Sequence record: OR992644.1 | Strand: one strand, 5' to 3' | Origin: Escherichia phage EP-B-K_E2 | Length of the DNA stretch: 43,553 bases | In this document: one piece after another, positions 597 through 26,171 of the stretch | Numbering within the stretch: the stretch's first letter is position 1 | Layout: the number at the start of each line of letters is the position of its first letter | The notes under the pieces: model-generated | What the model was told of the DNA's origin: nothing | The model's database searches: none | What the model saw: only the letters and a program-made list of their open reading frames with translations | Position numbers and translations under genes: made by a program

Positions 597-2017
597 TTCT
601 TACCTCGTCTCTTCATGTAGTTAAGCAACTCTTCCTGTACAGATTTCTTCTCGTCTGTACGCGCAGCAACAACCTCATCCAGCGTGTCTTTAGCTACGAT
701 ATGGTAGAGGAACACCGGGCGCTCGTGGCCCGCCTGTTTCTGGCGTACCGGGCCGATGCGCTCAACGACCTGCAAATAGTGCTCAAGGTTCCAGCCCTGC
801 GAAATAAACGCCAGATGGTGACCGCCGTCCTGTAAATTCAAACCATGCCCGGCTGACGCAGGATGTACGCATAGGATTTCGATTTCGCCACGGTTCCACG
901 CTTCCATCTGCTTATTACCCTTAGCGCCTTTTGCAAACGCCTGTGCCTGCGGGAAACGTTTCAGGATGCGTTCCAGTTCGTGCTTGAACTGATAAGCCAC
1001 AAGCAGCGGTGCACCCTGTAACTCCTCAACAATCGACCCCAGCGCATCCAGTTTCGTGTCGTGCACTTTCTCCCAGTCTTTGGTTGCTTCGCCGTCTGGC
1101 CCCGACACATACACGGCGCCGGATGCAATCTGGAGGCACTTCGACGTCTTCGCCGCCGCGTTAGCGGCTTCAACTTCTCCGCTCTCCAGTTCCGCGAATA
1201 ACTTCTCCTCCATATCGATGTACGCCTGACGCGCTTTCTTAGGCAGGTCGATTTCAACCGGTACAATAATCGGCGCTTCACAACCAAACCACTCGGCAGC
1301 GTCAATCGTGAGACTAATGTCTTTCATCTTCTGATGAATCTCAGTATCCGCACCCGGGCGGGCGTGATATTCACGCGCCATAGCCGACTTACCTTTCTGC
1401 ACTGAGTTAAACCAGCGGTCGGTGAATGCCGTGTACGATGAACCGAGGCGCTCTCCTGCGTCGATAAACCAGTTCTGGCCCCACAAGTCCTTGAGGCCGT
1501 TAGGTGATGGTGTACCAGTCAGGTTGATGAAACGCTTAACTTTACCGAATGCCACTTTGCTGAGCGCCTTCGCTCGCTTGCTCCCACCCGAACAGCTGCG
1601 GAAAGATTTTAGCTTCGTGCTTTCATCGGCAACGATAACCGTGAAAGGCCAGTCGTCTTTGCCGTAGTAGTCAATCAGCCATTCGATAACTTCGTAGTTA
1701 GTGCACACCACGTTAGCATCTGACTCCAGCGCCGCGATGCGGCGCTTCTCCGAACCAGTTGCATCTACGACACGCAGACAAGGGAATTGCCATTTCTCTT
1801 GTTCAGCGGGCCACGTACCGGACGCAACACGTAACGGGGCAAGGATTAACACGCGGTCCTCTTCCGTAAGCTGCCCGTTGCGGAACAGGCGGTTGAGCAC
1901 CCACATAGTGGAGGAGGTTTTACCTCCCCCCATTCCGCACCAGATATTACAGCGCGGGTGTTGCAGCATGAACGAAGTCATGAGCTTCTGGTACTCGCGC
2001 CTTTGAAACTTACTCAT
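593..2017 (-). CDS. SNF2/DEAD-like superfamily 2 DNA helicase
   Basis: Walker A GMGGGKTS, DExx-like VADES, helicase C-terminal region; 474 aa. Confidence 0.75.
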   Translation of the reverse strand: MSKFQRREYQKLMTSFMLQHPRCNIWCGMGGGKTSSTMWVLNRLFRNGQLTEEDRVLILAPLRVASGTWPAEQEKWQFPCLRVVDATGSEKRRIAALESDANVVCTNYEVIEWLIDYYGKDDWPFTVIVADESTKLKSFRSCSGGSKRAKALSKVAFGKVKRFINLTGTPSPNGLKDLWGQNWFIDAGERLGSSYTAFTDRWFNSVQKGKSAMAREYHARPGADTEIHQKMKDISLTIDAAEWFGCEAPIIVPVEIDLPKKARQAYIDMEEKLFAELESGEVEAANAAAKTSKCLQIASGAVYVSGPDGEATKDWEKVHDTKLDALGSIVEELQGAPLLVAYQFKHELERILKRFPQAQAFAKGAKGNKQMEAWNRGEIEILCVHPASAGHGLNLQDGGHHLAFISQGWNLEHYLQVVERIGPVRQKQAGHERPVFLYHIVAKDTLDEVVAARTDEKKSVQEELLNYMKRRGKK

Positions 2018-2939
2018 TTACCGCCCCCATGAATGCCTTTATAAATTCAGCGGCTACTTGCGGGACGATGGCATTGCCATAACCGCGCAATCGTCCCACT
2101 CTGGCGGGTACCCCATTAGCCAGCGGGAATGTGCCGGGTTCAACTGGCCTGAATTTTCCATCCCGGCATCCGAGCCAGTCAGTATCTGACCAGAAGCCGT
2201 GATGCGGATTGGCCGCGATATTTTCAGTCCCTGCTCCGTTGAGTAGTCCAGCCTGCTGAATGTCCTGTCCTTCCCGTCCTTGCGAATAACTGTCTCTCCG
2301 CTCCCTCTGTAATCGTTCGCGGTCGGCGTCACCCATGCCGCCATCGCAGCGGCCCATCCCAGTTTGTTCGGTTTCGTCCTGCCGTCTGTGCTGCGCATGT
2401 TCACGTCGTTTGTTATCAGTGATACCGCCGGTGTGGGCCAGTCTGTGCGCGCCGAAGAACAGCCTGTCGCGTTTGTGCGGTGCGCCGACGCTACAAGCTG
2501 GGAGTACGGCAAACCCGACGGCGTAGTCTTCTCCTTCCAGGTGAGTTTGTAAATCGCACATCCACGATTTTGCAATTGCTGGCGCAACTTGTTCCCCAAA
2601 GATGACTGGAGGACGGCACTCGCTGATGAGGTCAAGGAAGACTGGAGCGAGGTGTCTCGGGTCGAACTGTCCGAGTTGTTTTCCTGCCGCGCTAAACGGT
2701 TGGCAAGGCGGGCTTCCCGTCCAGAGAGGCGTATCTTCCGAAACTCCCGCAAGTCTGAGCGCGAGAGACCAGCCGCCGATACCAGCGAAAAAATGACACT
2801 GGGTGAACCCGTCAAGGTCTTCTGGTCTAACTTCAGTAATGCTTCTTTCATCTACAACTCCAAAAGGTATGTGGCCCTGTTTTATCAACTCGCGCAGCCA
2901 CGCGGTTGCGCCTTTATCCCACTCGTTGTAATAGTTCAT
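2010..2939 (-). CDS. DNA (cytosine-5)-methyltransferase
   Basis: Motif I FFAGIGG, motif IV GSPPCQPFSAAGK (PCQ), motif VIII RDRLFFG, C-terminal GNAIVP. Confidence 0.75.
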   Translation of the reverse strand: MNYYNEWDKGATAWLRELIKQGHIPFGVVDERSITEVRPEDLDGFTQCHFFAGIGGWSLALRLAGVSEDTPLWTGSPPCQPFSAAGKQLGQFDPRHLAPVFLDLISECRPPVIFGEQVAPAIAKSWMCDLQTHLEGEDYAVGFAVLPACSVGAPHKRDRLFFGAHRLAHTGGITDNKRREHAQHRRQDETEQTGMGRCDGGMGDADRERLQRERRDSYSQGREGQDIQQAGLLNGAGTENIAANPHHGFWSDTDWLGCRDGKFRPVEPGTFPLANGVPARVGRLRGYGNAIVPQVAAEFIKAFMGAVNE

Positions 2940-3127
2940 TTTGCCACCAAAACTAGCTCTTTACGCCCGAACGCCGTAACGTTACCGGTTACATCTTCGA
3001 TAACCAGTTTACCGTTTGACTCGACGAACACAGTATCAACGGCAACAGGCTGGCGGGTCTTAACGTTGAAAATCATGTCGCCAGGTACGATGTCACGTGC
3101 TGGCTTGCGGTCATATTCGTGTTTCAT
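2936..3127 (-). CDS. hypothetical protein
   Basis: 63-aa ORF tightly coupled to upstream genes, promoter immediately upstream. Confidence 0.45.
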   Translation of the reverse strand: MKHEYDRKPARDIVPGDMIFNVKTRQPVAVDTVFVESNGKLVIEDVTGNVTAFGRKELVLVAK

Positions 3128-3157
3128 TTCTCAATTCCTTATATTGTTGGTGTATGG

Positions 3158-3445
3158 CTAACTATAATAGTTCGCTATTAGGTCGTCAACCTGTTTAAAC
3201 GAACCAACGACAAAAACATTTGCACCGCGTTTACGCATCCGCTCATGCTCACGTAACTGGTGCGGGTCAGGCTTCGTGTTTTCGTCTTTCTTAACCTCGA
3301 CGAACCAGACGATGCCGCCGGGGAGAATTACCAGCAGGTCAGGGGCGCCGGAGCGCCCCTCGTACGAAAGTTTACGAACGAGGCCGCCAATGGCCTCGAA
3401 TTGCTCTTTTGCGTATTTCTGTACGCGGCCCTCTTTAGTCGCCAT
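3158..3445 (-). CDS. VRR-NUC domain nuclease (PD-(D/E)XK)
   Basis: GAPDLLVILPGG...VEVK motif typical of VRR-NUC. Confidence 0.7.
   Translation of the reverse strand: MATKEGRVQKYAKEQFEAIGGLVRKLSYEGRSGAPDLLVILPGGIVWFVEVKKDENTKPDPHQLREHERMRKRGANVFVVGSFKQVDDLIANYYS
3161..3189 (-). promoter_or_regulatory. sigma70-like promoter TTGACG-N17-TATAGT with AATAG-N4-CTATT dyad
   Basis: Read on minus strand; same architecture as 7070-7098 and 9383-9411. Confidence 0.6.
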
Positions 3446-3941
3446 GGTTGCAAAACTCTCCGTGCAGTTTTGCCCTAAATTCTCTCAGCGATTCGTCTGC
3501 TTCATTTAGGTTCTGGAAATACCCAATCTGGTGGCGTGTACCTTTAAAACCAACGCGGGCACACCAAGCATTATGGTGCTTACTCCAGTTAACCCCTTTC
3601 ACCCCGCTGGTGTTTGTAACTGGGGTCTTGCGGTTATGGTTCTGTTGAAATTCATCCGCAAGCCGTAGGTTACAAATCCGATTATCGTCCCGTATGCCGT
3701 TAATATGGTCTATTTGCTTAGTTGGCATCTCTCCGTACACCCACCACCACGCCAGCCTGTGTGCGCGGTAATACACCCTATTCCATCCTAACAATATGTA
3801 CCCTTTACGGTCCTTGTATGTAACAACATCTCCGGGTTTCGCGGTCTGGCATCTGTGCTTGACCCATTTAAATATCCCGGTATCTGGGTCGTATGACAGA
3901 AAATCTTTTATATCGTCACTTGGTGCTTTCATAATACACAC
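3435..3941 (-). CDS. HNH homing-type endonuclease with AP2-like DNA-binding domain
   Basis: HRLAWWWVYGEMPTKQIDHINGIRDDNRICNLRL HNH motif; C-terminal GVKGVNW...YFQNLNEA AP2-like. Confidence 0.65.
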   Translation of the reverse strand: MCIMKAPSDDIKDFLSYDPDTGIFKWVKHRCQTAKPGDVVTYKDRKGYILLGWNRVYYRAHRLAWWWVYGEMPTKQIDHINGIRDDNRICNLRLADEFQQNHNRKTPVTNTSGVKGVNWSKHHNAWCARVGFKGTRHQIGYFQNLNEADESLREFRAKLHGEFCNHGD

Positions 3942-4135
3942 CCCTCACGTTTCGTATGCTCAATACCGCAGCGCGGACAGATTCGGCAGTCTTCCTCATA
4001 AAACCAGTAAATTTTCATTCCAGCACCCACAGATAAATTGCGATGAACATACCCAATACGGCTACCATCATGCCGTATTACCCCTCGTGACAGTAGACAC
4101 CGGCGGCGAATCCCGCCAGTACCGCAATAATCAGT

Positions 4136-6316
4136 TTACTTAGCATAGCGCTTCATCTCCGCACCTTCCGCTACAAGAGGGAACCCCTCTGCCCACTCTG
4201 GTAATTCGCACATCAACCGTTCAAGCTCTGCGACATTGTATTCCGGTAAATCTGGCGTCTCGCAGATAATCTCATCGTGAACATGAAGCACAATTGGGTA
4301 GCCGTTTGCTTCGACGTTAAGCAGGGCATTAGCCAGCAAATCACGGCACAGCGCCTGAGTGCAGTTTTCCACCAGTTTACCGGAGTAGGTATACTGGAAG
4401 CCCCACTGCCTGGTTAACTGGTTTTCGCCCTGGTACTTGATGCGCACGTTAGTAGACACCTTCCCGTCTTCGTCTGTCTCTTTTGATACACTTAAACCAA
4501 CGCCCGGGTAAGACATAACGCGGCCCGACGGCAACGTCATGCGCAACCACCAGCCCGCGACTTTGTTGCCGTTGGTGTCTGTTTCTACGTTACGCGAAAA
4601 CTTAACGCCCCGCGGCCCTGCGGTGAACTCTTTACCTGGGTTGCGGATAGCCGCCATAGCTGCATCTTCAATATCTCGCCAGAAAGCTACTGTTTCCGGG
4701 TGAGACTCGCGCCACATGCGCTTGATAGCGTCACAGGTACGCCACACTTTCTTATCAAGAATATATGATGGTCGGTCATCCTTTTCACCTGGACGTGGTG
4801 GTCGCTTGGCTTCCTGAATACGCGCCCACTCATATCCACGTGCGGTAGCAGCCCAGATGTGGTCGGGGAAAGTCCCATCCATTGTTTTTGCCATATCAAC
4901 CAGGTCAAGGCCAAGGTTCTTGGCGAACTGTACGAATGCGCCGACGCCGCCCGCATAGCCAAGCCCAAGTTCGCAGGCCTTACCAATCTGGCGCAAATCT
5001 TTACGTTCTTTCTTAATGTAATCTGGGTCCATGCCGAACATCTTACCTGCGGTTACGCAGTAAATATCCAGTCCGGCGCGGAACGTATCTAGCGCGGTTT
5101 CTTCGCCTGCCAGCCACGCTAAACCACGGCCTTCGACGTTTGAGTAATCGGCGACGACAAACTTATGCCCCACTTCCGGTATGATGCAGCTACGTACCGT
5201 CGATGCCGTTAGCTTGGCTACATCAAAACGGCGGTGTGCCCGGCCTTTAAGTAACGCTGAAATGCCTTTATCCAATTCATCATCGTGATAGTACCCGCGC
5301 GCCAGGTTCTGCGGCTGGAAGCCTTTACCTGCAAACCGTAACGTACGCTTGGCCCCACCGTACTGGATGCAACCACGGCGTCGGTCGTCAGACGAGCGGC
5401 CCAACAGCAGCGGGTTATATTTCGTTGACGCGGTGGACGCGGCCCCGAGGCGCATTTCGATAATTGTGCGTGCGTCGTCCGGTAAATCATCGTCCGCCAG
5501 CAGGTCGTTAAGCGTCGACTTCTGTGCGTTGTGTATGCGGTGTGCAGGGGAGAGTTCACGAAGAATCGGCAGAAAGTCCTTACCAGTAAGCGAGCCGCCG
5601 TATTTGCGTTGGGCTTCCTCCTGTAACTGCGCTTTGTGTTTCTCCACGGCTTCAATAGCGGCTTCCGCCAGTGCAACGTCAACCTTAAACCCGCGGTCGT
5701 TGATTAACTGGTCCAGTTCCAGTACACGGTCTTCGAACTCAGAGTTACCCCAACGCGGCAGCTTATGGAAGACTTCACGCATCGCAGTGATGTCGCTCAC
5801 GGCGTACTTGATGAACAGCGCCCACTCGTCCGGGTGTGTTTCTGCGGTGTAGCGGCGGATTTTGTAATTCTTCGGTGTCGGTTTAGAGAAACGCTGAATC
5901 AGCGCCTTGCCGCGTTTATCTTTTGCATTGTCAGCAGACACGCCGAGCACTTCACACAGCGCATCAAGTGAACCCGGCAGCGCGTGACGAAACGCCCAAA
6001 TCATCGTATCAATGGTGTTGCTTACGGGAATATCAAAGCCCCAGCAGTGTTTCATGATGGGCCTATCGAAAAGTCCACCGTTGTGCCACACCATCTTAAT
6101 GCGGCTGTTTGGCTTCACCAGACGGCGCAGAGCACGGTGCAAATCTCCTGGCATGTCGCTGCCGTCAGTGCAATCCCATACACGTACTGGCTCGTCGTCA
6201 AAAGAGTATGTACAGATAAGCACTTCGGTTGACGGATGCTCGGCGTAAGCGTAAGAACCGACTTTCTTCAAATCGGCTTCGGAGAATGTTTCAAAGTCTA
6301 AGAACAGGTAACTCAT
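4136..6316 (-). CDS. family A DNA polymerase with 3'-5' exonuclease domain
   Basis: Exo motif LFLDFETFS; pol motif A DYSNVEGR, motif B RQIGKACELGLGYAGG, motif C VLHVHDEI. Confidence 0.85.
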   Translation of the reverse strand: MSYLFLDFETFSEADLKKVGSYAYAEHPSTEVLICTYSFDDEPVRVWDCTDGSDMPGDLHRALRRLVKPNSRIKMVWHNGGLFDRPIMKHCWGFDIPVSNTIDTMIWAFRHALPGSLDALCEVLGVSADNAKDKRGKALIQRFSKPTPKNYKIRRYTAETHPDEWALFIKYAVSDITAMREVFHKLPRWGNSEFEDRVLELDQLINDRGFKVDVALAEAAIEAVEKHKAQLQEEAQRKYGGSLTGKDFLPILRELSPAHRIHNAQKSTLNDLLADDDLPDDARTIIEMRLGAASTASTKYNPLLLGRSSDDRRRGCIQYGGAKRTLRFAGKGFQPQNLARGYYHDDELDKGISALLKGRAHRRFDVAKLTASTVRSCIIPEVGHKFVVADYSNVEGRGLAWLAGEETALDTFRAGLDIYCVTAGKMFGMDPDYIKKERKDLRQIGKACELGLGYAGGVGAFVQFAKNLGLDLVDMAKTMDGTFPDHIWAATARGYEWARIQEAKRPPRPGEKDDRPSYILDKKVWRTCDAIKRMWRESHPETVAFWRDIEDAAMAAIRNPGKEFTAGPRGVKFSRNVETDTNGNKVAGWWLRMTLPSGRVMSYPGVGLSVSKETDEDGKVSTNVRIKYQGENQLTRQWGFQYTYSGKLVENCTQALCRDLLANALLNVEANGYPIVLHVHDEIICETPDLPEYNVAELERLMCELPEWAEGFPLVAEGAEMKRYAK

Positions 6317-6375
6317 TATTTTCGACCCTTAGTAAAAAGGCCCAATGAAGGGCCTTAGTTAAATTGATTCAGATA

Positions 6376-7002
6376 TTAGCGACGGCGACGTTCGCGGCGC
6401 GGTGATCCATCTTCTTCGTCGTCTTCCAGGTCATCGACGCTTGCGGCGACTTTAGAGCCACCAAACGCTTTACCTTCCCCGACGTACTTAATCGCCAGCA
6501 GGTTAACACCGAGAACTTTATATTTCTGGCTGAACCAGATTTCGACGCTTACGTTAGCAACGCAGCCACTGTAAACCTGTTCGCCTTCAATCTGTTCACC
6601 GTCTACGTTGAAGTCCTGCTCTACCTGGGTCTCACCTTTTTTAGAGGTTACAATCAGTGGCTGTTTCTGTGCCTTCGCTTTGAAGTAGAAGCCTTCCGGG
6701 AAGTCTTCAAACGGATTGTCGCGCTCAGCAATGTCTTTAATCGCGCATTTATCCATGTGCTTACCTTCGCCATAGTTGGACTTCATCCACTTCTCGGCGG
6801 CGGCTGCACCTAACGCTTCTTCAACTACAGCGTAAACATTGTCGTAGAGTGCATCGATTTGGGCATGGTCAGACGGCAGGATAATAGTTGCGCTGTACTG
6901 GCCTTTAGTGATTGAACCATCATCGTTTTCACGGTCTTTTTCGCGTTCAAATACGTTAACCCATGCAGTGTTTACTTTACGCAGATTTAATTTCAGTCCC
7001 AT
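6376..7002 (-). CDS. DUF2815-like protein (possible ssDNA-binding protein)
   Basis: 208 aa, acidic C-terminal region, position between polymerase and DUF2800-like nuclease. Confidence 0.45.
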   Translation of the reverse strand: MGLKLNLRKVNTAWVNVFEREKDRENDDGSITKGQYSATIILPSDHAQIDALYDNVYAVVEEALGAAAAEKWMKSNYGEGKHMDKCAIKDIAERDNPFEDFPEGFYFKAKAQKQPLIVTSKKGETQVEQDFNVDGEQIEGEQVYSGCVANVSVEIWFSQKYKVLGVNLLAIKYVGEGKAFGGSKVAASVDDLEDDEEDGSPRRERRRR

Positions 7003-7069
7003 CTTGATTTCTCGCTTTTCAGTTTATATTTCAAAGTTTACTCCGGGAACTGCCCGGCCAGTGATTAGA

Positions 7070-7098
7070 ACTATAATAGCTAACTATTCAGGTGTCAA
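7070..7098 (-). promoter_or_regulatory. sigma70-like promoter TTGACA-N17-TATAGT with AATAG-N4-CTATT dyad
   Basis: Read on minus strand upstream of 6376-7002. Confidence 0.6.
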
Positions 7099-7129
7099 CC
7101 CTTCCAGCCAGTTATTTTCTCAACTATAG

Positions 7130-7360
7130 TTAGGTATAGTTAGGCCACTTCAAATTACGAACCCACTCAACTTCTTTGGCGTACACCAAATCCTCTAGCT
7201 CTATTTTCCTGCACTTGAACGCGGTATACGCGAAAAACGGAAGAAGCATTATGACAAGCGGCAATATTAGCGCGTGATAAGTTAAAAACGCCACAAAACC
7301 GCCAATTACTCTGAACATTTTACGAATCATTCTAAATCCTCCTCTGTTACCTGATTCCAC
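7130..7360 (-). CDS. small membrane protein
   Basis: 76 aa with hydrophobic stretch VIGGFVAFLTYHALILPLVIMLLPFFAY. Confidence 0.45.
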   Translation of the reverse strand: MESGNRGGFRMIRKMFRVIGGFVAFLTYHALILPLVIMLLPFFAYTAFKCRKIELEDLVYAKEVEWVRNLKWPNYT

Positions 7361-8583
7361 TCAGGACGTTTGTCGTCTGCCGTTGCGACACATGGTGCGC
7401 CCGGCTTACGGGTAATGAAGTCTTTCAGTTCTTCTTCCGGTATGACTTTAACAGCTTCGGTAGGCGTCATGAGCACTTCTTTAGTCAGCTTGTCGCCGTA
7501 GAGTTCTGTTACTTTCTCCGCGTCTTTCCACGCACGATTACCCGGGCGGCCTTCAACCAGTTTGTACCCTGGCACTTTCTTACCGGAATGCAACACGGCC
7601 GCCATCGCTTTCTCGACCTTATCGATGTGCTGGCGCAACAACGGCAACTTCTCATACTCGGCGACGAGTTGCTCCGGCGTTAGTTCTAGTGCAAAGTCGT
7701 CTTCAAGTTCTTCCGCCAGTACAGAATTAACCGTCTTTGTACGCGCGGCGCATTGTTCAGAGAACCTACACCACTGACAACCATCTACCGACGGCTTAAA
7801 GTCCGACGCTTTCAGGTTCTTCTTACCGCGGAAGTACGCATCTAGCGCTAACAGCGCGCGTTTCTGTGCGAACTTGGCGAACAGTTCCAGCCCTTCAACC
7901 GGGATGTCCCACTCCGACGCACCGCCAGCGTACGGCTGGAAGATAACCAGACGAACGGTTGTTATGTTATAACGTCTCTTAAGTCTGCGATAAACACCGA
8001 GAGCGTAAAGCATAAGCTGCTTGTTTTCTTTCGCTTCGACACGATGCCGCCCTGTTTTAAGGTCGCCGATAATGAGCATGTGCTCGTCGGTGTTTGTCAG
8101 TTCCTGAACGGCAACAAGGTCTGCGGTTCCGAACGTCTCAACGCCTTCATACCCCGGATGCAATACCTCAGTAAGATTTACGCGCATCTCCAGCTTAGCG
8201 AAAGTAGCCACGTCGATAATCGGTTTGCAGTAGTCGGTGTACTTGCGCACCTGCTCAATCATGTCCGCCGTAATCAGTACAGCGCCTTTCATAGGACTGA
8301 TTAGCGCCTTAATCTGGCCTTTGCCCTCATCCAGAACATAAGCACCGACTTCACGCTCTAACGGTAGCGCAGTTCCGCGAATATAAGCGTTGAGATGGAC
8401 CTCAGCTATAGTGTGGCACGCGGTCCCTGTAACGGCAGCTTTACCAGATGTGTTAGGAATATCTTTTTCACAGGCCAGTGATGCAGCACAACTCAGCCAC
8501 TTTTTAGCGCCTGACGGTGACAGTAAGGCATGTACATCATTATTGCCGCCGCGTTCTTTAAGAATCATACCCTGTTCTCCCAC
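7327..8583 (-). CDS. DUF2800-like PD-(D/E)XK nuclease (RecB/Cas4-like, Cys cluster)
   Basis: N-terminal HALLSPSGAKKW signature, C-terminal CQWCRF...C cysteine cluster. Confidence 0.6.
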   Translation of the reverse strand: MGEQGMILKERGGNNDVHALLSPSGAKKWLSCAASLACEKDIPNTSGKAAVTGTACHTIAEVHLNAYIRGTALPLEREVGAYVLDEGKGQIKALISPMKGAVLITADMIEQVRKYTDYCKPIIDVATFAKLEMRVNLTEVLHPGYEGVETFGTADLVAVQELTNTDEHMLIIGDLKTGRHRVEAKENKQLMLYALGVYRRLKRRYNITTVRLVIFQPYAGGASEWDIPVEGLELFAKFAQKRALLALDAYFRGKKNLKASDFKPSVDGCQWCRFSEQCAARTKTVNSVLAEELEDDFALELTPEQLVAEYEKLPLLRQHIDKVEKAMAAVLHSGKKVPGYKLVEGRPGNRAWKDAEKVTELYGDKLTKEVLMTPTEAVKVIPEEELKDFITRKPGAPCVATADDKRPEWNQVTEEDLE

Positions 8584-8837
8584 TGGTCAATTAAATGTCG
8601 CGTCTTGTGATGGCAATGCATAGCCCAGCCATACATCGACTCGAAGACATAAAAGTCAGGCTTGGCGAAAGTCGTACGCTTAATATGCGACACGTGGCGG
8701 CCTATGTCTTTAGGCCGTGGCACTTTGCCTAAGTACGCCATCTCTTCCATCTGGTGTGCACCGGACGGCGCGCGCAATAACCATAGCGCCTCTGTGTTAT
8801 CCCGCCTGTCAACGGCGCGGTATAGTTGGTAAATCAT
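8565..8837 (-). CDS. hypothetical protein
   Basis: 90-aa ORF in operon context. Confidence 0.4.
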   Translation of the reverse strand: MIYQLYRAVDRRDNTEALWLLRAPSGAHQMEEMAYLGKVPRPKDIGRHVSHIKRTTFAKPDFYVFESMYGWAMHCHHKTRHLIDQWENRV

Positions 8838-8880
8838 AATTCCGACCCTCAGTTAAAGCGGCCCGAAGGCCGCGGGATAG

Positions 8881-9351
8881 TTATTCTTCTTCAAAATACT
8901 TGTTCTTGATTGCTGTCAGGCGTTCCAGGTATTCGGCCAGGTCTTCGTCTTTAATCTCGGCAATCTTCATCTTCTTACCGGTGAACTCTTCCAGCAGTTC
9001 ATCGGAATCATCGCACGCGGCATCGCTAGGACCTTCGTTAATTGCGTCATCGATAGCCTGAATCTGGTCACGCAGAGACTGGTAATCGACTTCTTCTTTC
9101 TCTTCTTCCGGCTCTGGCGTCGGCTCCTCTACTTTAGCTTTACGCGGCTTGCGTTTCGGCTTCTCTTCTTCTGCAGGTTTAATGTCAACGACGTCTTCAC
9201 CTTCGACTGGGATTTCTTTTGTTGCTTCTTTCGCAACAGTGGTCTCGATTGTTGCGGTTTCAGCAACGACTACTTGTTTCACACTGTTCGCAGCAATCAG
9301 TTCATGTGCAACTACGAAACGTTCCAGTAATTTTAAGAATTGGTCTAACAT
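8881..9351 (-). CDS. hypothetical acidic protein
   Basis: 156 aa, Glu/Asp-rich, first gene downstream of promoter 9383-9411. Confidence 0.5.
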   Translation of the reverse strand: MLDQFLKLLERFVVAHELIAANSVKQVVVAETATIETTVAKEATKEIPVEGEDVVDIKPAEEEKPKRKPRKAKVEEPTPEPEEEKEEVDYQSLRDQIQAIDDAINEGPSDAACDDSDELLEEFTGKKMKIAEIKDEDLAEYLERLTAIKNKYFEEE

Positions 9352-9382
9352 TTGTTTCTCTCCTCTCGTTTGGTATGGGCTA

Positions 9383-9411
9383 ACTATAATAGCGAACTAT
9401 TCACATGTCAA
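9383..9411 (-). promoter_or_regulatory. sigma70-like promoter TTGACA-N17-TATAGT with AATAG-N4-CTATT dyad
   Basis: Read on minus strand; divergent from HTH gene at 9476. Confidence 0.6.
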
Positions 9412-9475
9412 TGGGCTTTTCTAAAATAATTAATATGGTACTATTCACATATCAACTAACTAAGGAGTAATTGAC

Positions 9476-9691
9476 ATGCAACCATCTGAACTAGGCATCC
9501 GTGTAGAACAACGCCGCAAAGAACTTGGAATCTCCCAGCGCCGTCTGGCTGTACTAACCGGCGTTTCCCAGGGTGCAATTAACCAGCTGGCCCTTGGGGT
9601 AACTCAGGATGTCCGCCCGGCAACGCTGTTTAAACTGGCGGAAGTGCTGCAAGTAGACGCCAAGTGGCTGGCGTTCGGTGAAGGGGCTTAA
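9476..9691 (+). CDS. XRE-family helix-turn-helix transcriptional regulator (Cro/CI-like)
   Basis: ISQRRLAVLTGVSQGAINQL HTH; SD taaggag 8 nt upstream; divergent from early promoter. Confidence 0.75.
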   Translation: MQPSELGIRVEQRRKELGISQRRLAVLTGVSQGAINQLALGVTQDVRPATLFKLAEVLQVDAKWLAFGEGA

Positions 9692-9708
9692 CGCCCCTTT
9701 CTTTTTAC

Positions 9709-11994
9709 CTATTCCAAATCCTCCTCTGTCACCACCAGCATTTCATTCGGTTCGTATATTGTCTTCGGTCTTAATCTGTCACCCATCTTTTCCGGTATCC
9801 GGTATGTGCCCGGCATAACTTCACCGTTAATATCACACCCAAGCATCAACTCCCCGTCTTTCAGCATCTTCTCAAGATGATGGTTGGTGATGGCGTGGTC
9901 ACCCGAGTTCGCTACTATCTGTCGTTGGGTAAAACCGCGTCCGGTGTCGTCAGACTGTTGCAGGTCTTCCAGCGCGGCGAGTATTGATTCCTTACGCCCT
10001 TCATCCTTCCCACGTTTCACAGCATTCTTTACGTTTTCTTTACCTTCCTTTGTCAGCCCTTCTTCCCGCTCCTTCTCCTCGTCAGTCTTGAACGGCTCGA
10101 ATCCCCACGGCATCAGCACAAGCGCCTTGTGCGGTTCCGGCAGGTCGAGGTTTACGATTGTGCCGTATTCCTCTGTGCTACCGAGGAACTCAACCGCACG
10201 GTACTCTTTCGGTGGTGGCGCTTCACGGAACTGTACCGACTCCAGCACCATGCCAACCGTCTTCTGTTGAGGCCCATGCTTAAATTTAGAGTGGTATACG
10301 TTTATCTGACGGTCAGTGGCGCGTTCGATTGTCAGTTCCACGTCGACGCCCGCATACAGCGCCCCACTACCGCGGGCTTTCTTTCCACCCTTCGGTGTAT
10401 GGTGGACGACGCCCACCGCGGCTTTAGTCGCATCACGTACTTCTTTCAGGATGGCGATAACTTTACCCATACCGATTGCCGTTGATGAGCTGTTCTCGTC
10501 GAACTTATCAATCGTCAGGGCCAGGGTCTGGTTAAGGGTGTCGAACGCGACCATGCCGATAGGTTCATCGCCCGCAGTTTCGCGCATTAACTTAATCAGG
10601 CTTTTAAGTTTGCCGACTTCGCCCATGTCGATGACGTGTACATAATCTTTACCCTCTGCGCCGTATTTAGCCGCGAGCGCGTCAATACGTGTACGTGTGG
10701 CTGCGCCCCCCTCACCGTCGATATAGAAGTGGTGGCAACGCTGGGTGTCAGCGCCTGCAAACCGGTATCCCGCCGCGCTAAGGTACATCATACCCAGCGT
10801 ATAGAATGATTTGTACGTGCCTGATTCCCCAACAATATCCCAGATACAATCCGACGGCATATACCCCTCAACGACGAAATCAGCCTTTACCGGTTCCGGT
10901 AACTCGTCCTCCTCTGAGTCCTCATCACCATCTTCCAGGTCGTCGAGGCTGCATGAGACATATTCACGTGCACCCCAGCCGATAGCCTCGGCGACTTCAC
11001 TGAATGGCAGCCCGGTCGCATCGCACGCGTATCTCCACACCTCTTTCGGCGACATGCCTTCGGTTGCCGTAATGTCGGTGTCGTGAATCATGGTTACGTT
11101 AGGCGCTTCGTAGCCCTCACGCGGGAAACACAGCAGGAAGTCATCCGGGCGAGGGGTCGGGTCGCTGTAGTTCTCTGCGTGTTCTGGTGTAGCTGGCATC
11201 TTAAGGCCGCGGGGCGTCATGATGCCGCCATACTCAAACGCCAGCGCCTCGAACGCGTCTGTAAACGCGGTGCGCAGTTCTTCCGGTATCTGGTAATCCG
11301 ATGCGCTGCTCACATCGTAATCCGGGATGCCTTCCAGTAACTCGTCCGGGTCAATCAGGTCGTTGCGACGCGACCAGATAACGGTAGAGCCGACCGGCGG
11401 CAGGTACATCGGCTGCGAAAGAGTGAACCCGCTGCGGTCCGCACCCATGCCTTTGAAGAAGTGCTCAAGCAATCCATGACGAACACGGATTATGTCACCA
11501 CCTTCAACCGGTCGGCCCAGGGGCATAACGACGCGAAAGCGCGGTGACTCATCGGTATGGGATGCCGTGGTATAGAGGCACATGGCCTGACGGCTGCGCT
11601 TAACCAGTCGCACCGCTTCCTGATACTCTTCCGGCGTTGTGCTGTCGAAGTCCAGATATGCCAGCGACGATTTGCTTACAGACGCGTCACAGCGATAAAA
11701 GAAGCCTTTACGCGCTTGCTTAAAGTCCCCGGTTTCCGGGTCTTTTACGGTGCTGTGTGTTGAGTCGCACGCGGCTGTGATATAGCCGGGCGCGGTCTTC
11801 GGGTTAACCCCATCACGAACAGCATCGAGCGGCCGGATTAACTCTTTCAGGTCGTCCAGTGTTGCCGTGTGTGTGGTTCTGACGTTTATATCCTTTTTCT
11901 CTGCTCGCGCGTTGCGACGAGACCACGAGTAGGATAAAATTACATCGGACATGTTGTATATTCCTTCAGCAAGTAATTTGGCCTCGGCGTTCAC
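9709..11994 (-). CDS. DNA primase / replicative helicase (primase domain plus RecA-like ATPase)
   Basis: 761 aa; Walker A-like VGESGTYKS in C-terminal half; size and position in replication module. Confidence 0.65.
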   Translation of the reverse strand: MNAEAKLLAEGIYNMSDVILSYSWSRRNARAEKKDINVRTTHTATLDDLKELIRPLDAVRDGVNPKTAPGYITAACDSTHSTVKDPETGDFKQARKGFFYRCDASVSKSSLAYLDFDSTTPEEYQEAVRLVKRSRQAMCLYTTASHTDESPRFRVVMPLGRPVEGGDIIRVRHGLLEHFFKGMGADRSGFTLSQPMYLPPVGSTVIWSRRNDLIDPDELLEGIPDYDVSSASDYQIPEELRTAFTDAFEALAFEYGGIMTPRGLKMPATPEHAENYSDPTPRPDDFLLCFPREGYEAPNVTMIHDTDITATEGMSPKEVWRYACDATGLPFSEVAEAIGWGAREYVSCSLDDLEDGDEDSEEDELPEPVKADFVVEGYMPSDCIWDIVGESGTYKSFYTLGMMYLSAAGYRFAGADTQRCHHFYIDGEGGAATRTRIDALAAKYGAEGKDYVHVIDMGEVGKLKSLIKLMRETAGDEPIGMVAFDTLNQTLALTIDKFDENSSSTAIGMGKVIAILKEVRDATKAAVGVVHHTPKGGKKARGSGALYAGVDVELTIERATDRQINVYHSKFKHGPQQKTVGMVLESVQFREAPPPKEYRAVEFLGSTEEYGTIVNLDLPEPHKALVLMPWGFEPFKTDEEKEREEGLTKEGKENVKNAVKRGKDEGRKESILAALEDLQQSDDTGRGFTQRQIVANSGDHAITNHHLEKMLKDGELMLGCDINGEVMPGTYRIPEKMGDRLRPKTIYEPNEMLVVTEEDLE

Positions 11995-12011
11995 CGCGTC
12001 GGGGCTTTCTT

Positions 12012-12245
12012 TTATTCCAGGTCCTCTAAAGTAGCGGTCATTCCGCGAACTTCAGCAACGGCACTATATTTCCCGCCAACATTTTTCACGACACCGGATT
12101 TAACCAGCACCTTCAACGACCCTTCAATAACGGCGGAACTATAGTACTTAAAATAACTACGGCGCAAGTCCATAACGCTGCACGACCCTTTTTTACGTGT
12201 TAATGAGACGACCGCCGTAAATACGCGTGACTGGAACTCAGTCAT
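12012..12245 (-). CDS. hypothetical protein (possible winged-helix)
   Basis: 77-aa ORF coupled to 12242-12445. Confidence 0.4.
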   Translation of the reverse strand: MTEFQSRVFTAVVSLTRKKGSCSVMDLRRSYFKYYSSAVIEGSLKVLVKSGVVKNVGGKYSAVAEVRGMTATLEDLE

Positions 12246-12445
12246 TTCACGTTCTCCTTAATCCACGCTTCCACTTTCTCCCGGTCAAACGTACCTGGCT
12301 GCCGGCGGCCCATAATGCGAATACAACAATCCGGGAACTTCCCGCTCTTTAACCAGTTATTCAGCGTGCGACGAGTAACCCCGATACGCTCAGCTACTTC
12401 ATTCTGCGTCATTCTCAACCCCTCATTATCAGTTAACGGAACCAA
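12242..12445 (-). CDS. small HTH DNA-binding protein (AlpA/excisionase-like fold)
   Basis: MTQNEVAERIGVTRRTLNNWLKSGKFP HTH; first gene of minus-strand arm. Confidence 0.6.
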   Translation of the reverse strand: MVPLTDNEGLRMTQNEVAERIGVTRRTLNNWLKSGKFPDCCIRIMGRRQPGTFDREKVEAWIKENVK

Positions 12446-12843
12446 GTATACATTGCGAATAATGGGAAATCAAACATAATCGCACCTATTGACATTATGA
12501 AAATCTTCGTTTAAGGTGCTTCTATATCTTAGTTACTTTGATTCCTGTTCACCTTGTAAGAATGTTTAACCCGTGCGTCAAGCAAAGGGTTAAACACAGG
12601 CTTACTGAACACGAGAATTATCGTAACTTTCCTTCCTAAGTATCTCCGGTTGCCCTGGGCAAGCTCTATTCTCACCGGCAGCATATCTCTTAAGTATCTG
12701 ATTTTCTTAATGTGCCGTAGATTCGCAACCGTAAAAATGTAACGATTATCGGGCAGGCTTAAGGCCTGCCCTTTAGTTACCAAGTAATAAGAATAAAGGC
12801 ACAACCTTCCCTAAAGAATCACAACGGCAACGTAACTATTCTC

Positions 12844-12872
12844 TTGCACACCCCAACATAATAGGTTACTAT
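12844..12872 (+). promoter_or_regulatory. sigma70-like promoter TTGCAC-N17-TACTAT with AATAG-N4-CTATT dyad
   Basis: Nearly identical 35-bp element to 25844-25872 and 35034-35062 (opposite strand). Confidence 0.6.
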
Positions 12873-12907
12873 TCACTTATCGAAACGAGACAGAGGAGCG
12901 AGGGGTT

Positions 12908-13093
12908 ATGTTTAAGAAGGGTCAGTTGGTTAAAGTAAACGATTACGGTTATTACGGTGCTATCGAACGAATTTCAAATAAGGTTAACGGGATGTACTAC
13001 ATCCGTACACCTAACCAGCGTTTCGGTAAGTGGTGCTTCGGGGACGAGATAAAACTCATCGGCAACAATTTTAAATTCAAAGGGGTGAAGTGA
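12908..13093 (+). CDS. hypothetical protein
   Basis: 61 aa, SD gaggagcgagggg upstream. Confidence 0.45.
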   Translation: MFKKGQLVKVNDYGYYGAIERISNKVNGMYYIRTPNQRFGKWCFGDEIKLIGNNFKFKGVK

Positions 13094-14054: not shown

Positions 14055-14083
14055 TTGCACACTGGGATAGAATAGACTACTAT
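14055..14083 (+). promoter_or_regulatory. sigma70-like promoter TTGCAC-N17-TACTAT with AATAG-N4-CTATT dyad
   Basis: Upstream of 14114 gene. Confidence 0.6.
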
Positions 14084-25035: not shown

Positions 25036-25496
25036 TGATGGGCTTTTTCAAAGTAACTGATGTGCCGTCGCGTCGCGTAGTCCAGTACGCCCGTGTGTCT
25101 GGCTCCGGCGAGAACGTGGTATTTATTGAGGACGAAAGTGTACTTGGTACACCTGTAGACGACATGCCGTTTGCCGATAAAACAGGCATTGCGCTGCCAG
25201 CGGCGGGTATGCTTTACGAGATTCCGTATCTGGCTGATGCGGGTGATGTGTATTTCTCTGTGCAACCGAAAGACGCTGAACTTGCGGACGGCAGCGCAAA
25301 TATCACTGTCGAAGTTAAGGCGGGCAAAGCTCCGTATTCACTTACCTGGTACAAGGACGGTAAGGAAGTGGTGAACGCCCCCGAGGAGGCTATGTCTCTG
25401 AGGGTTAACGCGGTCGGTGAATACTTCGTTAAAGTCGCCGATGCCGACGGCGTAGAGGCGGTAAGCAAAGCGGCGAAGGTTACTAAGCCAGAATGA
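25035..25496 (+). CDS. Ig-like domain protein (possible capsid decoration)
   Basis: C-terminal YSLTWYKDGKEV Ig-like strand motif shared with 29159 product. Confidence 0.45.
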   Translation: MMGFFKVTDVPSRRVVQYARVSGSGENVVFIEDESVLGTPVDDMPFADKTGIALPAAGMLYEIPYLADAGDVYFSVQPKDAELADGSANITVEVKAGKAPYSLTWYKDGKEVVNAPEEAMSLRVNAVGEYFVKVADADGVEAVSKAAKVTKPE

Positions 25497-25500
25497 TAGA

Positions 25501-25529
25501 AGGCCCTGAAAGGGCCTTATTTTTTTTTA
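25501..25529 (+). terminator. rho-independent terminator
   Basis: aggccct-gaa-agggcct followed by 9 T. Confidence 0.7.
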
Positions 25530-25808
25530 TACAAATACGAATCCATCGCTGGTAGAGGTGTATCGGGTGGCGCCGTTTTTCGTTTCAGGCCAACAGATAT
25601 ATGAGCGACCATGATACTCTATCCACCAAAGTTCTACATCGGCACCTTCATTAGGTCGCGTCAACCACCCGTGGTGCAGCCAATACTTGCGCCCTATTTT
25701 AAATATGCCTTCTTCGCCTGAAGGCCTGCAACAGGCGACGCACTCTACTTGAATACCATCAACCTGCACACATGTCATATGTAAATTACTGTTTGAGTAT
25801 TTAGCCAT
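25527..25808 (-). CDS. reverse-oriented orphan gene, Cys-rich hypothetical protein
   Basis: 93-aa ORF with own promoter (25844-25872) and SD aaggaa; opposite to flanking structural genes. Confidence 0.55.
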   Translation of the reverse strand: MAKYSNSNLHMTCVQVDGIQVECVACCRPSGEEGIFKIGRKYWLHHGWLTRPNEGADVELWWIEYHGRSYICWPETKNGATRYTSTSDGFVFV

Positions 25809-25843
25809 TTCTAAATTCCTTATCTCTCGTTTCGATGTAATGA

Positions 25844-25872
25844 ATAGTACCCTATTATGCTGGTGTGTGCAA
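25844..25872 (-). promoter_or_regulatory. sigma70-like promoter TTGCAC-N17-TACTAT with dyad (minus strand)
   Basis: Near-identical to 12844-12872 element. Confidence 0.6.
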
Positions 25873-25926
25873 ACTATTTATTTACATATTCCAGTTATTC
25901 CGCTCAATTGTAAATGTTGGAATAAA

Positions 25927-26143: not shown

Positions 26144-26171
26144 TAGCGCCCCGCTTTAAGGCGGGGCTTTA
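26144..26171 (+). promoter_or_regulatory. GC-rich hairpin in leader upstream of spanin genes (possible attenuator)
   Basis: gccccgc-tttaag-gcggggc followed by tttactt. Confidence 0.4.

What the first reader, a model, noticed from the sequence alone, without database searches (positions are those of the whole stretch)
12446..12907. 460-bp non-coding divergence region between the two genome arms
The region has no convincing ORF (the 91-aa minus ORF in the track is basic and lacks an SD). It contains a TTGACA box at 12489, a 9-bp inverted repeat gtttaaccc/gggttaaac (12565-12596), a GC hairpin gggcaggc-ttaa-gcctgccc (12750-12770), direct repeats of TAAGTATCT (12638, 12692) and the early plus promoter at 12844. 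It is a candidate for a replication origin, a small RNA or a regulatory hub.
Basis: seen in the sequence. Interest (0 to 1): 0.4.

Follow-up and report, generated by a model that had tools for sequence, protein, structure and literature searches.

The report
Conserved structured early RNA in Guernseyvirinae phages
The gap between the two oppositely transcribed halves of this E. coli phage genome holds two back-to-back promoters and what looks like an undescribed, roughly 255-base structured non-coding RNA gene, whose folding is preserved by compensating mutations in relatives from two phage genera; nothing found supports a replication origin.

Summary
The window is a Kagunavirus-like siphophage (subfamily Guernseyvirinae).

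The region is a transcription-control hub that very probably includes an RNA gene.
- **Promoters:** a leftward promoter (12473→12445) and a rightward promoter PR1 (TTGACA 12489, N17, TAAGGT) stand back to back. Both are invariant in all relatives examined.
- **D1 hairpin (12531-12628):** it folds at -38 kcal/mol (z -7.6). Eighteen of its 34 pairs change on both sides while pairing is kept, and 95.9% of cells pair against 32-42% for slid controls.
- **Strand:** G·U pairs and consensus folding energies favour the + strand, which matches PR1.
- **Downstream of D1:** a conserved unpaired CU-rich linker, two UAAGUAUCU copies, a weaker hairpin D2, and the best-ranked intrinsic terminator in the 12.4-32 kb scan (12751-12778).
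- **PR2 (12844):** this second promoter belongs to a four-copy phage-wide motif and starts the early genes.

There is no Rfam family, no E. coli homologue and no literature. No iterons, DnaA boxes or AT-rich unwinding element support an origin. Expression and function remain untested.

The parts
12242..12412 (-). First gene of the leftward arm: a 56-aa HTH_17 (excisionase-like) DNA-binding protein. Included as context; it may regulate this region.
   Evidence: Pfam HTH_17, E 3.6e-8; PHROG 66. Annotated as a 171-nt gene in relatives. It is 41-55/56 identical in relatives whichever RNA module they carry.
12445..12473 (-). Leftward promoter PL: TTGATT-N17-TATACT.
   Evidence: Consensus scan. Both hexamers lie in blocks (AATGGGAAATCAA and AGTATAC) that are invariant in 18 distinct homologues.
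12489..12517 (+). Rightward promoter PR1: TTGACA (12489-12494), 17-bp spacer, TAAGGT (12512-12517). The predicted start is near A12524.
   Evidence: Read from the sequence. CACCTATTGACATT is invariant and the -10 is TAAGGT or TAAGTT in all homologues. Annotated as a promoter in phage Jersey. The -10 matches only 3 of 6 positions, so the consensus scan did not list it.
12524..12778 (+). Predicted non-coding RNA of about 255 nt (PR1 start to the terminator U-tract).
   Evidence: Folds at -78.2 kcal/mol, z -4.6. No conserved ORF. No Rfam family. The ends are inferred, not measured.
12531..12628 (+). Domain 1: a 98-nt extended hairpin with helices P1-P5, a 4-nt CCUU bulge and a variable apex.
   Evidence: -38.0 kcal/mol, z -7.57. 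Covariance model R1 finds exactly one strong forward-strand copy per genome. 18 of 34 pairs change on both sides and 95.9% of cells pair, against 32-42% for slid controls. At least five different apical stem sequences all pair.
12629..12649 (+). Conserved unpaired CU-rich linker UUUCCUUCCUAAGUAUCUCCG, containing repeat copy 1 (TAAGTATCT, 12637-12645).
   Evidence: Nearly invariant columns in A2. Unpaired in the minimum-energy and consensus folds. A UUAGUAUCU motif also occurs in the otherwise different K1ind3 module.
12650..12681 (+). Domain 2: a short irregular hairpin, UUGCC.UGGG.AA / UU.CUCA..GGCAG. This is a tentative assignment.
   Evidence: 98.8% of cells pair, and five pairs vary on one side only, always through G·U-compatible changes. 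There is no change on both sides and the energy is not above shuffles (z -0.59). The same hairpin appears in the independent fold of phage Jersey.
12691..12699 (+). Repeat copy 2 (TAAGTATCT), within the conserved CUUAAGUAUCUGA.
   Evidence: TTAAGT is invariant and the rest of the motif is almost invariant in 37 homologues.
12751..12778 (+). Intrinsic terminator: a 9-bp GC-rich stem (GGGCAGGC(U)/(A)GCCUGCCC) followed by UUUAGUU.
   Evidence: Top-ranked terminator-like site in the 12.4-32 kb scan. -18.5 kcal/mol, z -4.5. The stem is invariant and the loop variable in 27 distinct homologues. The U-tract is interrupted, so termination is probably partial (inference).
12844..12872 (+). Promoter PR2: TTGCAC-N17-TACTAT, heading the rightward early genes.
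   Evidence: Belongs to a repeated motif also found at 14055 (+), 25872 (-) and 35062 (-). The 20-mer has 3 copies against 0 expected. It is conserved even in phages with a different upstream module.
12908..13093 (+). First rightward early ORF (61 aa, PHROG 12538, function unknown).
   Evidence: the homologous ORF is annotated in relatives.

Best explanation
The region is the early transcription-control hub of the phage. Besides two divergent sigma-70 promoters, it contains a free-standing gene for a structured non-coding RNA.

**Proposed sequence of events.** Host RNA polymerase starts at PR1 (TTGACA-N17-TAAGGT), at about 12524. It transcribes a 98-nt extended hairpin (D1), then a conserved unpaired CU-rich linker with two UAAGUAUCU motifs that flank a short hairpin (D2). 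It stops, at least partly, at the hairpin 12751-12771 plus UUUAGUU. The product is an RNA of about 255 nt, made as soon as the DNA enters the cell. The early protein genes have their own promoter, PR2 (12844).

**Proposed function.** I take the RNA to act mainly in trans, on a host or phage protein or RNA. D1 would serve as a stable scaffold or a processing and protein-binding platform. The invariant single-stranded linker and repeats would be the contact surface. A fraction that reads through the terminator would also serve as a 5' leader for the early operon.

**Shown in silico:**
- conservation of both promoters;
- compensatory evolution of D1;
- plus-strand bias of wobble pairs;
- the terminator;
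- the absence of a conserved ORF.

**Inferred, not shown:**
- that the RNA is actually made, and its exact ends;
- trans versus cis action;
- the target.
For: 1. **Promoter.** The block CACCTATTGACATT and the -10 TAAGGT/TAAGTT at a 17-bp spacing are invariant in all homologues from two genera. Phage Jersey's curators annotated the same site as a promoter.
2. **D1 structure.** It folds at -38 kcal/mol with z -7.57. In the model-based alignment of 34 distinct sequences, 95.9% of cells pair, against 32-42% when partners are slid. 18 of 34 pairs and 185 cells change on both sides, and no shuffle reached this.
3. **Independent covariation.** Within Kagunavirus-type sequences alone, on a plain MAFFT alignment, 6 pairs covary. 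One pair occurs as G-C, A-U and U-A. The apical stem exists in at least 5 different sequences that all pair.
4. **Strand.** D1 has 46 G·U cells against 10 A·C cells. D2 varies only through G·U-compatible changes. The consensus folding energy is about twice as good on the + strand (-27.9 against -14.9; -8.3 against -4.0).
5. **Terminator.** It is the best-ranked terminator-like site in its 20-kb scan and is followed by a separate promoter of a repeated class.
6. **Non-coding.** No ORF is conserved.
7. **Selection.** The region is as conserved as or more conserved than adjacent coding sequence between genera.
8. **Same design elsewhere.** Relatives with unrelated sequence at this locus (Bas76, K1ind3) keep the same layout of strong promoter, significantly structured non-coding stretch, terminator hairpin and PR2.
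9. **Precedent.** Short RNAs from promoter-proximal terminators are documented in virulent Pseudomonas phages, where two were confirmed by northern blot (PMC10914365).
Against: - There are no expression data of any kind, and no literature on this region was found.
- The -10 hexamer matches the consensus at only 3 of 6 positions and was not picked up by the consensus scan.
- The terminator U-tract is short and interrupted. The Jersey-type 3' module has a hairpin without a U-tract. In those phages the RNA may be only a leader.
- D2 has no change on both sides and no energetic significance.
- The D1 covariation comes partly from a two-clade phylogeny, and the alignment used for the count was fitted to the structure.
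- No complementary target exists within the phage: the longest complement is a single 13-mer, on the antisense strand of a gene, which is about what chance gives. No host target could be searched for.
- A single-stranded DNA hairpin on the + strand would give the same covariation and wobble pattern.
Confidence: 0.6

Rival explanations
1. The element is a cis-acting leader that makes RNA polymerase terminator-resistant, as HK022 put RNA does. Polymerase starting at PR1 would transcribe D1 and D2, and the nascent RNA would bind it. The modified polymerase would then read through the terminator at 12751 and later terminators along the >30-kb rightward arm. Polymerase starting at PR2-type promoters would remain terminator-sensitive.
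For: - The arrangement is right: promoter, then stem-loops, then a strong terminator, then a long co-oriented gene array.
- Several further plus-strand terminator-like sites lie downstream, at 13782, 22380, 25500, 26148 and 28803.
- No phage RNA polymerase or known antiterminator protein turned up in the six ORFs scanned or in the annotated stretches of relatives.
- The lower helices P1, P3 and most of P4 in D1 never vary in sequence. That pattern suits sequence-specific recognition.
Against: - There is no sequence or model match to any known antiterminator RNA, even at Rfam E<=10.
- D1 is one long 98-nt hairpin, not two short stem-loops.
- The early genes have their own conserved promoter PR2, so read-through is not needed to express them.
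- No functional data exist.
Confidence: 0.17
2. The region is a replication origin. It would act either as a transcription-activated, RNA-primed origin or through a single-strand initiation hairpin on the + strand, recognised by the adjacent helicase-primase.
For: - It lies about 420 bp from the helicase-primase gene, at the divergence point of the two arms, where cumulative GC skew has its minimum.
- A conserved hairpin with plus-strand-specific wobble pairs would also fit a single-stranded DNA priming signal.
Against: - There are no iteron arrays, only two-copy repeats.
- The P4-type iteron TGTTCACC occurs once here, and its 4 copies are scattered through the genome.
- No DnaA box lies in the region.
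- The only AT-rich part (GC 0.32-0.33) is the promoter block itself.
- The skew switch coincides exactly with the switch in gene orientation.
- The hairpin sits precisely between a conserved promoter and a terminator. An RNA gene predicts that placement; an origin does not.
Confidence: 0.08
3. The region is a purely DNA-level control region. The conserved blocks, including the two TAAGTATCT repeats 54 bp apart, would be operators for the adjacent HTH_17 protein or for host factors. These would time the left and right promoters, possibly through AlpA-like, protein-mediated antitermination at the 12751 terminator. Any transcript would be a by-product.
For: - An HTH_17 DNA-binding protein is encoded immediately to the left and is conserved in all relatives.
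- The repeats are conserved and spaced about five helical turns apart.
- HTH proteins of this broad class include AlpA, which loads at a promoter and lets polymerase bypass a downstream terminator (PMC9371919 and PMC7969949).
Against: - Operators do not explain the compensatory base-pair changes or the plus-strand wobble bias in D1.
- The HTH protein does not match the Pfam AlpA family or the AlpA structures.
- Phages with an unrelated sequence at this locus have nearly the same HTH protein (49/56 and 41/56 identical). The RNA module therefore does not co-vary with the protein.
Confidence: 0.1

Closest known systems
5'UTR-derived or promoter-proximal ncRNA candidates of virulent phages (phiKZ, PAK_P3, LUZ19, YuA and others; Putzeys et al. 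2024, PMC10914365)
   Same: A host-type promoter is followed within about 250 nt by a terminator. This gives an abundant short RNA plus a read-through fraction. The sequences are conserved within a phage genus, carry no ORF, and have unknown function.
   Different: Those RNAs were found by transcriptomics in Pseudomonas phages and lack covariation evidence. This one is predicted from sequence only. It is in enterobacterial siphophages, is conserved across two genera, has strong structural covariation, and is followed by a separate promoter for the downstream genes.
HK022 put RNA (cis-acting antiterminator RNA). Comparison from established knowledge; no model was available.
   Same: A structured RNA is encoded directly downstream of an early promoter and upstream of a terminator, at the head of a long operon, in a phage that uses host RNA polymerase throughout.
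   Different: put consists of two short stem-loops of about 70 nt in total and occurs on both early operons. Here there is one 98-nt hairpin plus a weak second hairpin, on the rightward side only. No sequence similarity could be tested, and the genes downstream have their own promoter.
RNase III processing hairpins in the T7 early leader (from established knowledge)
   Same: A long irregular hairpin with internal loops lies in the first few hundred nucleotides of the early transcript of a virulent coliphage. D1 stacks about 34 bp of interrupted duplex, which is enough for RNase III.
   Different: T7 sites lie between genes of one polycistronic mRNA and are not followed by a terminator. No cleavage data exist here, and the conserved single-stranded linker and repeats have no T7 counterpart.
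Iteron or DUE-type phage and plasmid origins, and P4 ori/crr
   Same: The position next to a helicase-primase gene, at a strand-switch point. One copy of the P4 iteron octamer TGTTCACC lies inside D1.
   Different: There are no iteron array, no DnaA boxes and no separate AT-rich unwinding element. The helicase domain is AAA_25/RepA-like in Pfam. From my own knowledge, not tested here, the P4 alpha helicase belongs to a different superfamily (SF3).

Membership tests
Stand-alone bacterial or phage small-RNA gene (promoter + structured non-coding transcript + intrinsic terminator) | Own promoter directly upstream, conserved in relatives | tested here: met
   TTGACA-N17-TAAGGT/TAAGTT is invariant in all homologues and is annotated as a promoter in phage Jersey. 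The -10 matches only 3 of 6 positions.
Stand-alone bacterial or phage small-RNA gene (promoter + structured non-coding transcript + intrinsic terminator) | Rho-independent terminator at the 3' end | tested here: met
   A 9-bp GC-rich stem at -18.5 kcal/mol followed by UUUAGUU; top-ranked in its scan. The U-tract is interrupted, and the Jersey-type 3' module lacks a U-tract.
Stand-alone bacterial or phage small-RNA gene (promoter + structured non-coding transcript + intrinsic terminator) | No conserved ORF | tested here: met
   ORFs differ or are absent among the 35 distinct homologues. The 91-aa minus ORF has no family match.
Stand-alone bacterial or phage small-RNA gene (promoter + structured non-coding transcript + intrinsic terminator) | Secondary structure conserved through compensatory changes on the transcribed strand | tested here: met
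   D1: 18 of 34 pairs change on both sides and 95.9% of cells pair, against 32-42% for slid controls. G·U 46 against A·C 10. The + strand consensus energy is about twice that of the - strand. D2 is only compatible with pairing.
Stand-alone bacterial or phage small-RNA gene (promoter + structured non-coding transcript + intrinsic terminator) | A discrete transcript detected in infected cells | not testable with these tools
   No transcriptome of any Guernseyvirinae phage was found in the literature library.
Any curated RNA family (Rfam 15) | Score at or above a family's gathering threshold | tested here: not met
   No hit in the whole window. At E<=10 there were only three chance-level hits, the best being Hrs12 at 20.8 bits against a threshold of 70.
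HK022 put-type antiterminator RNA | Structured RNA just downstream of an early promoter and upstream of a terminator | tested here: met
   PR1, then D1 and D2, then the terminator at 12751.
HK022 put-type antiterminator RNA | Two short stem-loops with the put consensus; similarity to putL or putR | tested here: inconclusive
   No put sequence or model was available. The architecture differs: one 98-nt hairpin plus a weak 32-nt hairpin.
HK022 put-type antiterminator RNA | Confers terminator read-through in cis | not testable with these tools
   This needs reporter assays or in vitro transcription.
Iteron/DUE replication origin | Array of three or more directly repeated initiator-binding sites | tested here: not met
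   Only two-copy repeat families of 8-14 nt were found. TAAGTATCT has 2 exact copies, and its genome-wide count is at chance level.
Iteron/DUE replication origin | DnaA boxes and/or a distinct AT-rich unwinding element | tested here: not met
   No DnaA box at <=1 mismatch lies in 12400-12930. The lowest GC (0.32) is at the promoter block 12440-12560.
Iteron/DUE replication origin | Origin activity or a copy-number peak | not testable with these tools
   The GC-skew minimum at about 12.0-12.5 kb coincides with the gene-orientation switch and does not discriminate.
P4-type origin (alpha-protein iterons) | Clustered TGTTCACC iterons | tested here: not met
   One copy lies in the region. The window has 4 scattered copies against 1.15 expected.
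AlpA-type protein antitermination module | Regulator belongs to the AlpA family | tested here: not met
   The protein matches HTH_17, and the Pfam AlpA family is not among its hits. The PDB sequence search returned no AlpA chain.
6S RNA | Match to 6S covariance models; a long hairpin with a large central bubble | tested here: not met
   No Rfam hit even at E<=10. D1's internal loops are 4 nt or smaller.

The most novel reading that the evidence does not exclude
D1/D2 may be a new class of cis-acting, polymerase-modifying antiterminator RNA, analogous to put. It would license only PR1-initiated host RNA polymerase to traverse the terminator at 12751 and all later terminators of the >30-kb rightward arm. 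That would supply the missing early-to-late switch of Guernseyvirinae, for which I found no phage RNA polymerase or antiterminator protein.
Probability: 0.15. Interest if true: 0.75.

Novelty: new member of a known kind. Interest (0 to 1): 0.45.

Why it matters
Guernseyvirinae (Jersey-like and K1G-like phages) are among the phages most often isolated for Salmonella and E. coli therapy and biocontrol. They are also used as small chassis for phage engineering.

Nothing is published on how they time their gene expression. In most of the deposited genomes I looked at, this roughly 0.5-kb segment is blank or carries spurious small ORFs.

A conserved early RNA with solid covariation would give three things:
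- a concrete, testable handle on early regulation or host takeover;
- a new family for RNA databases;
- a warning to genome engineers that this "empty" intergenic region is under selection.

Other members of the subfamily carry unrelated but equally structured modules at the same site. This suggests an exchangeable RNA cassette, which would be unusual.

Tried and rejected
- **Coding potential.** Neither the 91-aa minus ORF nor any small plus-strand ORF (including the 25-codon ORF starting ATGTTTAA at 12562) is conserved.
- **Known RNA families.** Rfam gave nothing at the gathering thresholds and nothing meaningful at E<=10. There are no tRNA or tmRNA genes.
- **P4-like origin.** The idea came from the octamer TGTTCACC inside D1. 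It occurs once here, which is chance level.
- **DnaA boxes, iterons and AT-rich element.** None found.
- **Antisense target inside the phage.** The longest complement is one 13-mer on the non-coding strand of a gene. Nothing was found for the linker. A duplex-energy scan timed out.
- **Host homologue.** Nothing was found in 5,426 E. coli genomes. Short seed matches cannot be searched with these tools.
- **Promoter-spacer repeat.** The 14-nt inverted repeat between the PR1 spacer (12492-12505) and 12700-12713 (I1) is not conserved in Jersey-type sequences and was dropped.
- **Alternative long-range helices.** CGGUUGC/GCAACCG appears in the window's minimum-energy fold but is not conserved in Jersey-type sequences. 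CGGCA/UGCCG is kept in three different 3' modules and competes with D2. It is left unresolved.
- **Pairing between the two TAAGTATCT repeats.** An A/U polymorphism in copy 1 is not compensated.
- **Co-variation of the HTH protein with the RNA module.** None.
- **AlpA membership of the HTH protein.** Not met.
- **Wider relatives.** Searching through the neighbouring 77-aa protein recovered only contigs of the same phage group, with no more distant relatives.
- **Literature.** Seven searches found nothing on this region. One of them was too broad to be useful.

Full report
**Identity of the window**

The window is essentially a complete siphophage genome of the Kagunavirus type (subfamily Guernseyvirinae). 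The 1-kb stretch around the finding is 100% identical to Escherichia phage EP-M-A. It is 91-96% identical to many Kagunavirus records.

Long ORFs run on the minus strand from about 600 to 12412 and on the plus strand from 12908 onward. GC skew changes sign at this point. The finding therefore sits at the divergence point of the two arms, as stated.

The left-flanking gene is a 56-aa HTH_17 protein. Next come a 77-aa protein of unknown function and a 761-aa replicative helicase-primase.

**Check of the observation**

Every feature exists, some with a one-base offset:
- TTGACA at 12489-12494.
- The inverted repeat at 12563-12572 / 12587-12596.
- The GC hairpin at 12751-12758 / 12764-12771, followed by TTTAGTT.
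- TAAGTATCT at 12637 and 12691.
- TTGCAC-N17-TACTAT at 12844-12872.

The region is non-coding. The 91-aa minus ORF matches no family. Among 35 distinct homologous segments, ORFs differ in position, frame and strand, and six segments have no ORF of 30 aa or more.

The segment is far from random. It matches 447 phage records, 326 of them Salmonella phages of the sister genus Jerseyvirus, at 70-80% identity over most of its length. Compared with phage Jersey, the stretch 12633-12702 is 79% identical. Third codon positions of the two neighbouring genes are 54-77% identical, and the first kilobase of the helicase-primase gene is 57% identical.

**Anatomy: promoters**

Alignments of the window with relatives show two invariant promoter blocks standing back to back.
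- **PL**, on the minus strand, is TTGATT-N17-TATACT (12473→12445). It serves the HTH gene.
- **PR1**, on the plus strand, is TTGACA-N17-TAAGGT (12489-12517). The -35 box is perfect and invariant. The -10 keeps only the three key positions (TAnnnT), so the consensus scan missed it. The curators of phage Jersey annotated the same site as a promoter.

**Anatomy: the D1 hairpin**

A start near A12524 is followed by a 98-nt extended hairpin, D1 (12531-12628). It folds at -38.0 kcal/mol with z -7.57.

The lower helices P1, P3 and most of P4 never vary in sequence. P2 is completely recoded between the genera: UGAUUC/GAAUUA against AAGUUU/AAACUU. The last pair of P4 occurs as G-C, A-U and U-A. The apical stem exists in at least five unrelated sequences, and all of them pair.

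I built a covariance model (R1) from 22 Kagunavirus-type sequences. It finds exactly one strong forward-strand copy per genome and also recovers the Jersey-type copies. On the resulting alignment:
- 95.9% of cells pair, against 32-42% with slid partners.
- 18 of 34 pairs change on both sides.
- No shuffle reached the observed covariation score.

On the plain MAFFT alignment of Kagunavirus-type sequences alone, which was not fitted to any structure, six pairs still covary.

**Which strand folds**

D1 contains 46 G·U cells and only 10 A·C cells. Consensus folding energies are about twice as favourable on the + strand: -27.9 against -14.9 for D1, and -8.3 against -4.0 for D2. This agrees with the direction of PR1 and of the terminator.

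**Anatomy downstream of D1**

- An almost invariant, unpaired, CU-rich linker (UUUCCUUCCUAAGUAUCUCCG), which contains repeat copy 1.
- A short hairpin, D2 (12650-12681). All its variation is G·U-compatible, but no pair changes on both sides and its energy is not significant. I treat D2 as tentative.
- Repeat copy 2 (CUUAAGUAUCUGA).
- A highly conserved 3' segment.
- A 9-bp GC-rich hairpin plus UUUAGUU (-18.5 kcal/mol). It is the best-ranked terminator-like site in the 12.4-32 kb scan.

The whole 259-nt stretch folds with z -4.6.

**The second promoter, PR2**

About 70 bp beyond the terminator lies PR2. Its 20-bp core, CATAATAGGTTACTATTCAC, recurs at 25840-25859 (-) and 35030-35049 (-). A looser copy lies at 14055 (+). 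All four are at the heads of transcription units, and the expected number of copies is zero.

A published PHIRE analysis of another Kagunavirus reported the same motif, as its reverse complement, as a seven-copy "phage promoter" (PMC9825357). The early protein genes therefore have their own promoter of a phage-wide class. PR1, D1/D2 and the terminator form a separate unit.

**The locus is modular**

Phage Jersey and some relatives keep PR1, D1, the linker and D2. They replace the 3' segment with another long hairpin that has no U-tract. A third type of 3' module has yet another GC-rich hairpin, followed by UUUU.

Bas76 and K1ind3 carry entirely different sequence after a strong promoter. Model R1 does not match them, but the sequence is again significantly structured (z -5.1 and -2.6) and ends in the same terminator and PR2 modules. 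K1ind3 retains a UUAGUAUCU motif. The HTH protein is nearly the same in all of them.

**Interpretation**

The simplest reading is an early-expressed, structured non-coding RNA gene of about 255 nt, embedded in a divergent-promoter hub. Several lines point to a stand-alone RNA rather than a mere leader:
- its own promoter;
- its own terminator;
- a separate promoter for the downstream genes;
- an invariant single-stranded segment.

Because the U-tract is interrupted, I expect part of the transcripts to read through. This is the pattern reported for promoter-proximal ncRNA candidates in virulent Pseudomonas phages (PMC10914365).

I found no target inside the phage and could not search host transcriptomes for short seeds. 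There is no homologue in E. coli genomes. There is also no Rfam family and no paper that mentions the region.

**Rivals**

- **put-like cis-antiterminator RNA.** It fits the layout, and several more terminator-like sites lie downstream. It has no direct support, and PR2 makes read-through unnecessary for the early genes.
- **Replication origin.** It has only positional support. There are no iterons, DnaA boxes or separate AT-rich element, and the skew switch is confounded with gene orientation. A single-stranded DNA initiation hairpin on the + strand cannot be formally excluded from sequence alone.
- **DNA operators for the HTH protein.** These may well exist in the promoter block, but they do not explain the compensatory changes in D1. 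The protein is not an AlpA-family member.

**Limits**

- Everything about expression, transcript ends and function is inferred.
- The D1 covariation is partly carried by the Kagunavirus/Jerseyvirus split, and the main count was made on a model-fitted alignment. The within-genus MAFFT count and the slid-partner control reduce this concern but do not remove it.
- D2 and the competing CGGCA/UGCCG helix remain unresolved.

**Verdict**

The "small RNA / regulatory hub" reading is supported and the "origin" reading is not. The element is an undescribed member of a known kind: a phage promoter-proximal structured ncRNA. It is of moderate interest and could be tested directly with a northern blot and a handful of compensatory mutants.

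Noticed in passing
window 12844-12872 (+), 14055-14083 (+), 25844-25872 (-), 35034-35062 (-): A repeated promoter-like motif, TTGCAC-N17-TACTAT, with a conserved spacer ((C/T)ATAATAGG(G/T)TACTATTCA), lies at the heads of transcription units. The 20-mer has 3 copies at <=2 mismatches against 0 expected. The same motif was reported by PHIRE as a 7-copy 'phage promoter' in Kagunavirus fBC-Eco01 (PMC9825357). I found no RNA polymerase gene in these phages, which suggests a host-polymerase promoter class with a phage-specific recognition element.
   Followed up: partly
L042:1020-1200 (Bas76) and L043:870-1195 (K1ind3): Phages of the same subfamily carry unrelated but significantly structured non-coding modules (z -5.1 and -2.6) at the same locus. 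They lie between a strong promoter and the shared terminator and PR2 block. The locus looks like an exchangeable RNA cassette.
   Followed up: partly
L004:1468-2435 (Salmonella phage LSPA1): The homologous non-coding gap is about 970 bp in LSPA1, and probably in PBSE191, whose match spans a similar length. About 450 bp of extra GC-rich, hairpin-rich sequence is inserted after the terminator module. It is unannotated.
   Followed up: no
window 9383-9411, 7070-7098, 3161-3189 (all - strand): Three near-consensus sigma-70 promoters (TTGACA or TTGACG, N17, TATAGT; 10-11 of 12 matches) are spaced along the leftward replication arm. This suggests several host-polymerase entry points.
   Followed up: no
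window 25496-26192: A second large gap of about 700 bp has no convincing ORF. It contains plus-strand terminator-like hairpins at 25500 and 26148 and a minus-strand copy of the PR2-type motif at 25844-25872. It may be another regulatory or non-coding RNA region.
   Followed up: no
window 12242-12445 (-): The mechanical ORF list starts the HTH gene at TTG 12445 (67 aa). Relatives annotate a 171-nt gene, which corresponds to ATG 12412 (56 aa). The longer version would overlap the PL promoter.
   Followed up: yes
window 12672-12681 versus 12650-12654 and 12713-12717: The segment CGGCAG can pair either upstream (UUGCC, which forms D2) or downstream (UGCCG). The downstream partner is retained in three otherwise different 3' modules. 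This could be an RNA switch formed by alternative helices.
   Followed up: partly
phage records OR992643 (EP-M-A), MT074482 (horsemountain), NC_073173 (blauehaus), PQ571293 (EM1): Three deposited genomes (horsemountain, blauehaus, EM1) end inside this intergenic region. The 100%-identical record EP-M-A is only 24 kb long and unannotated. The ends differ between records, so they look like arbitrary linearisation points rather than physical termini.
   Followed up: no
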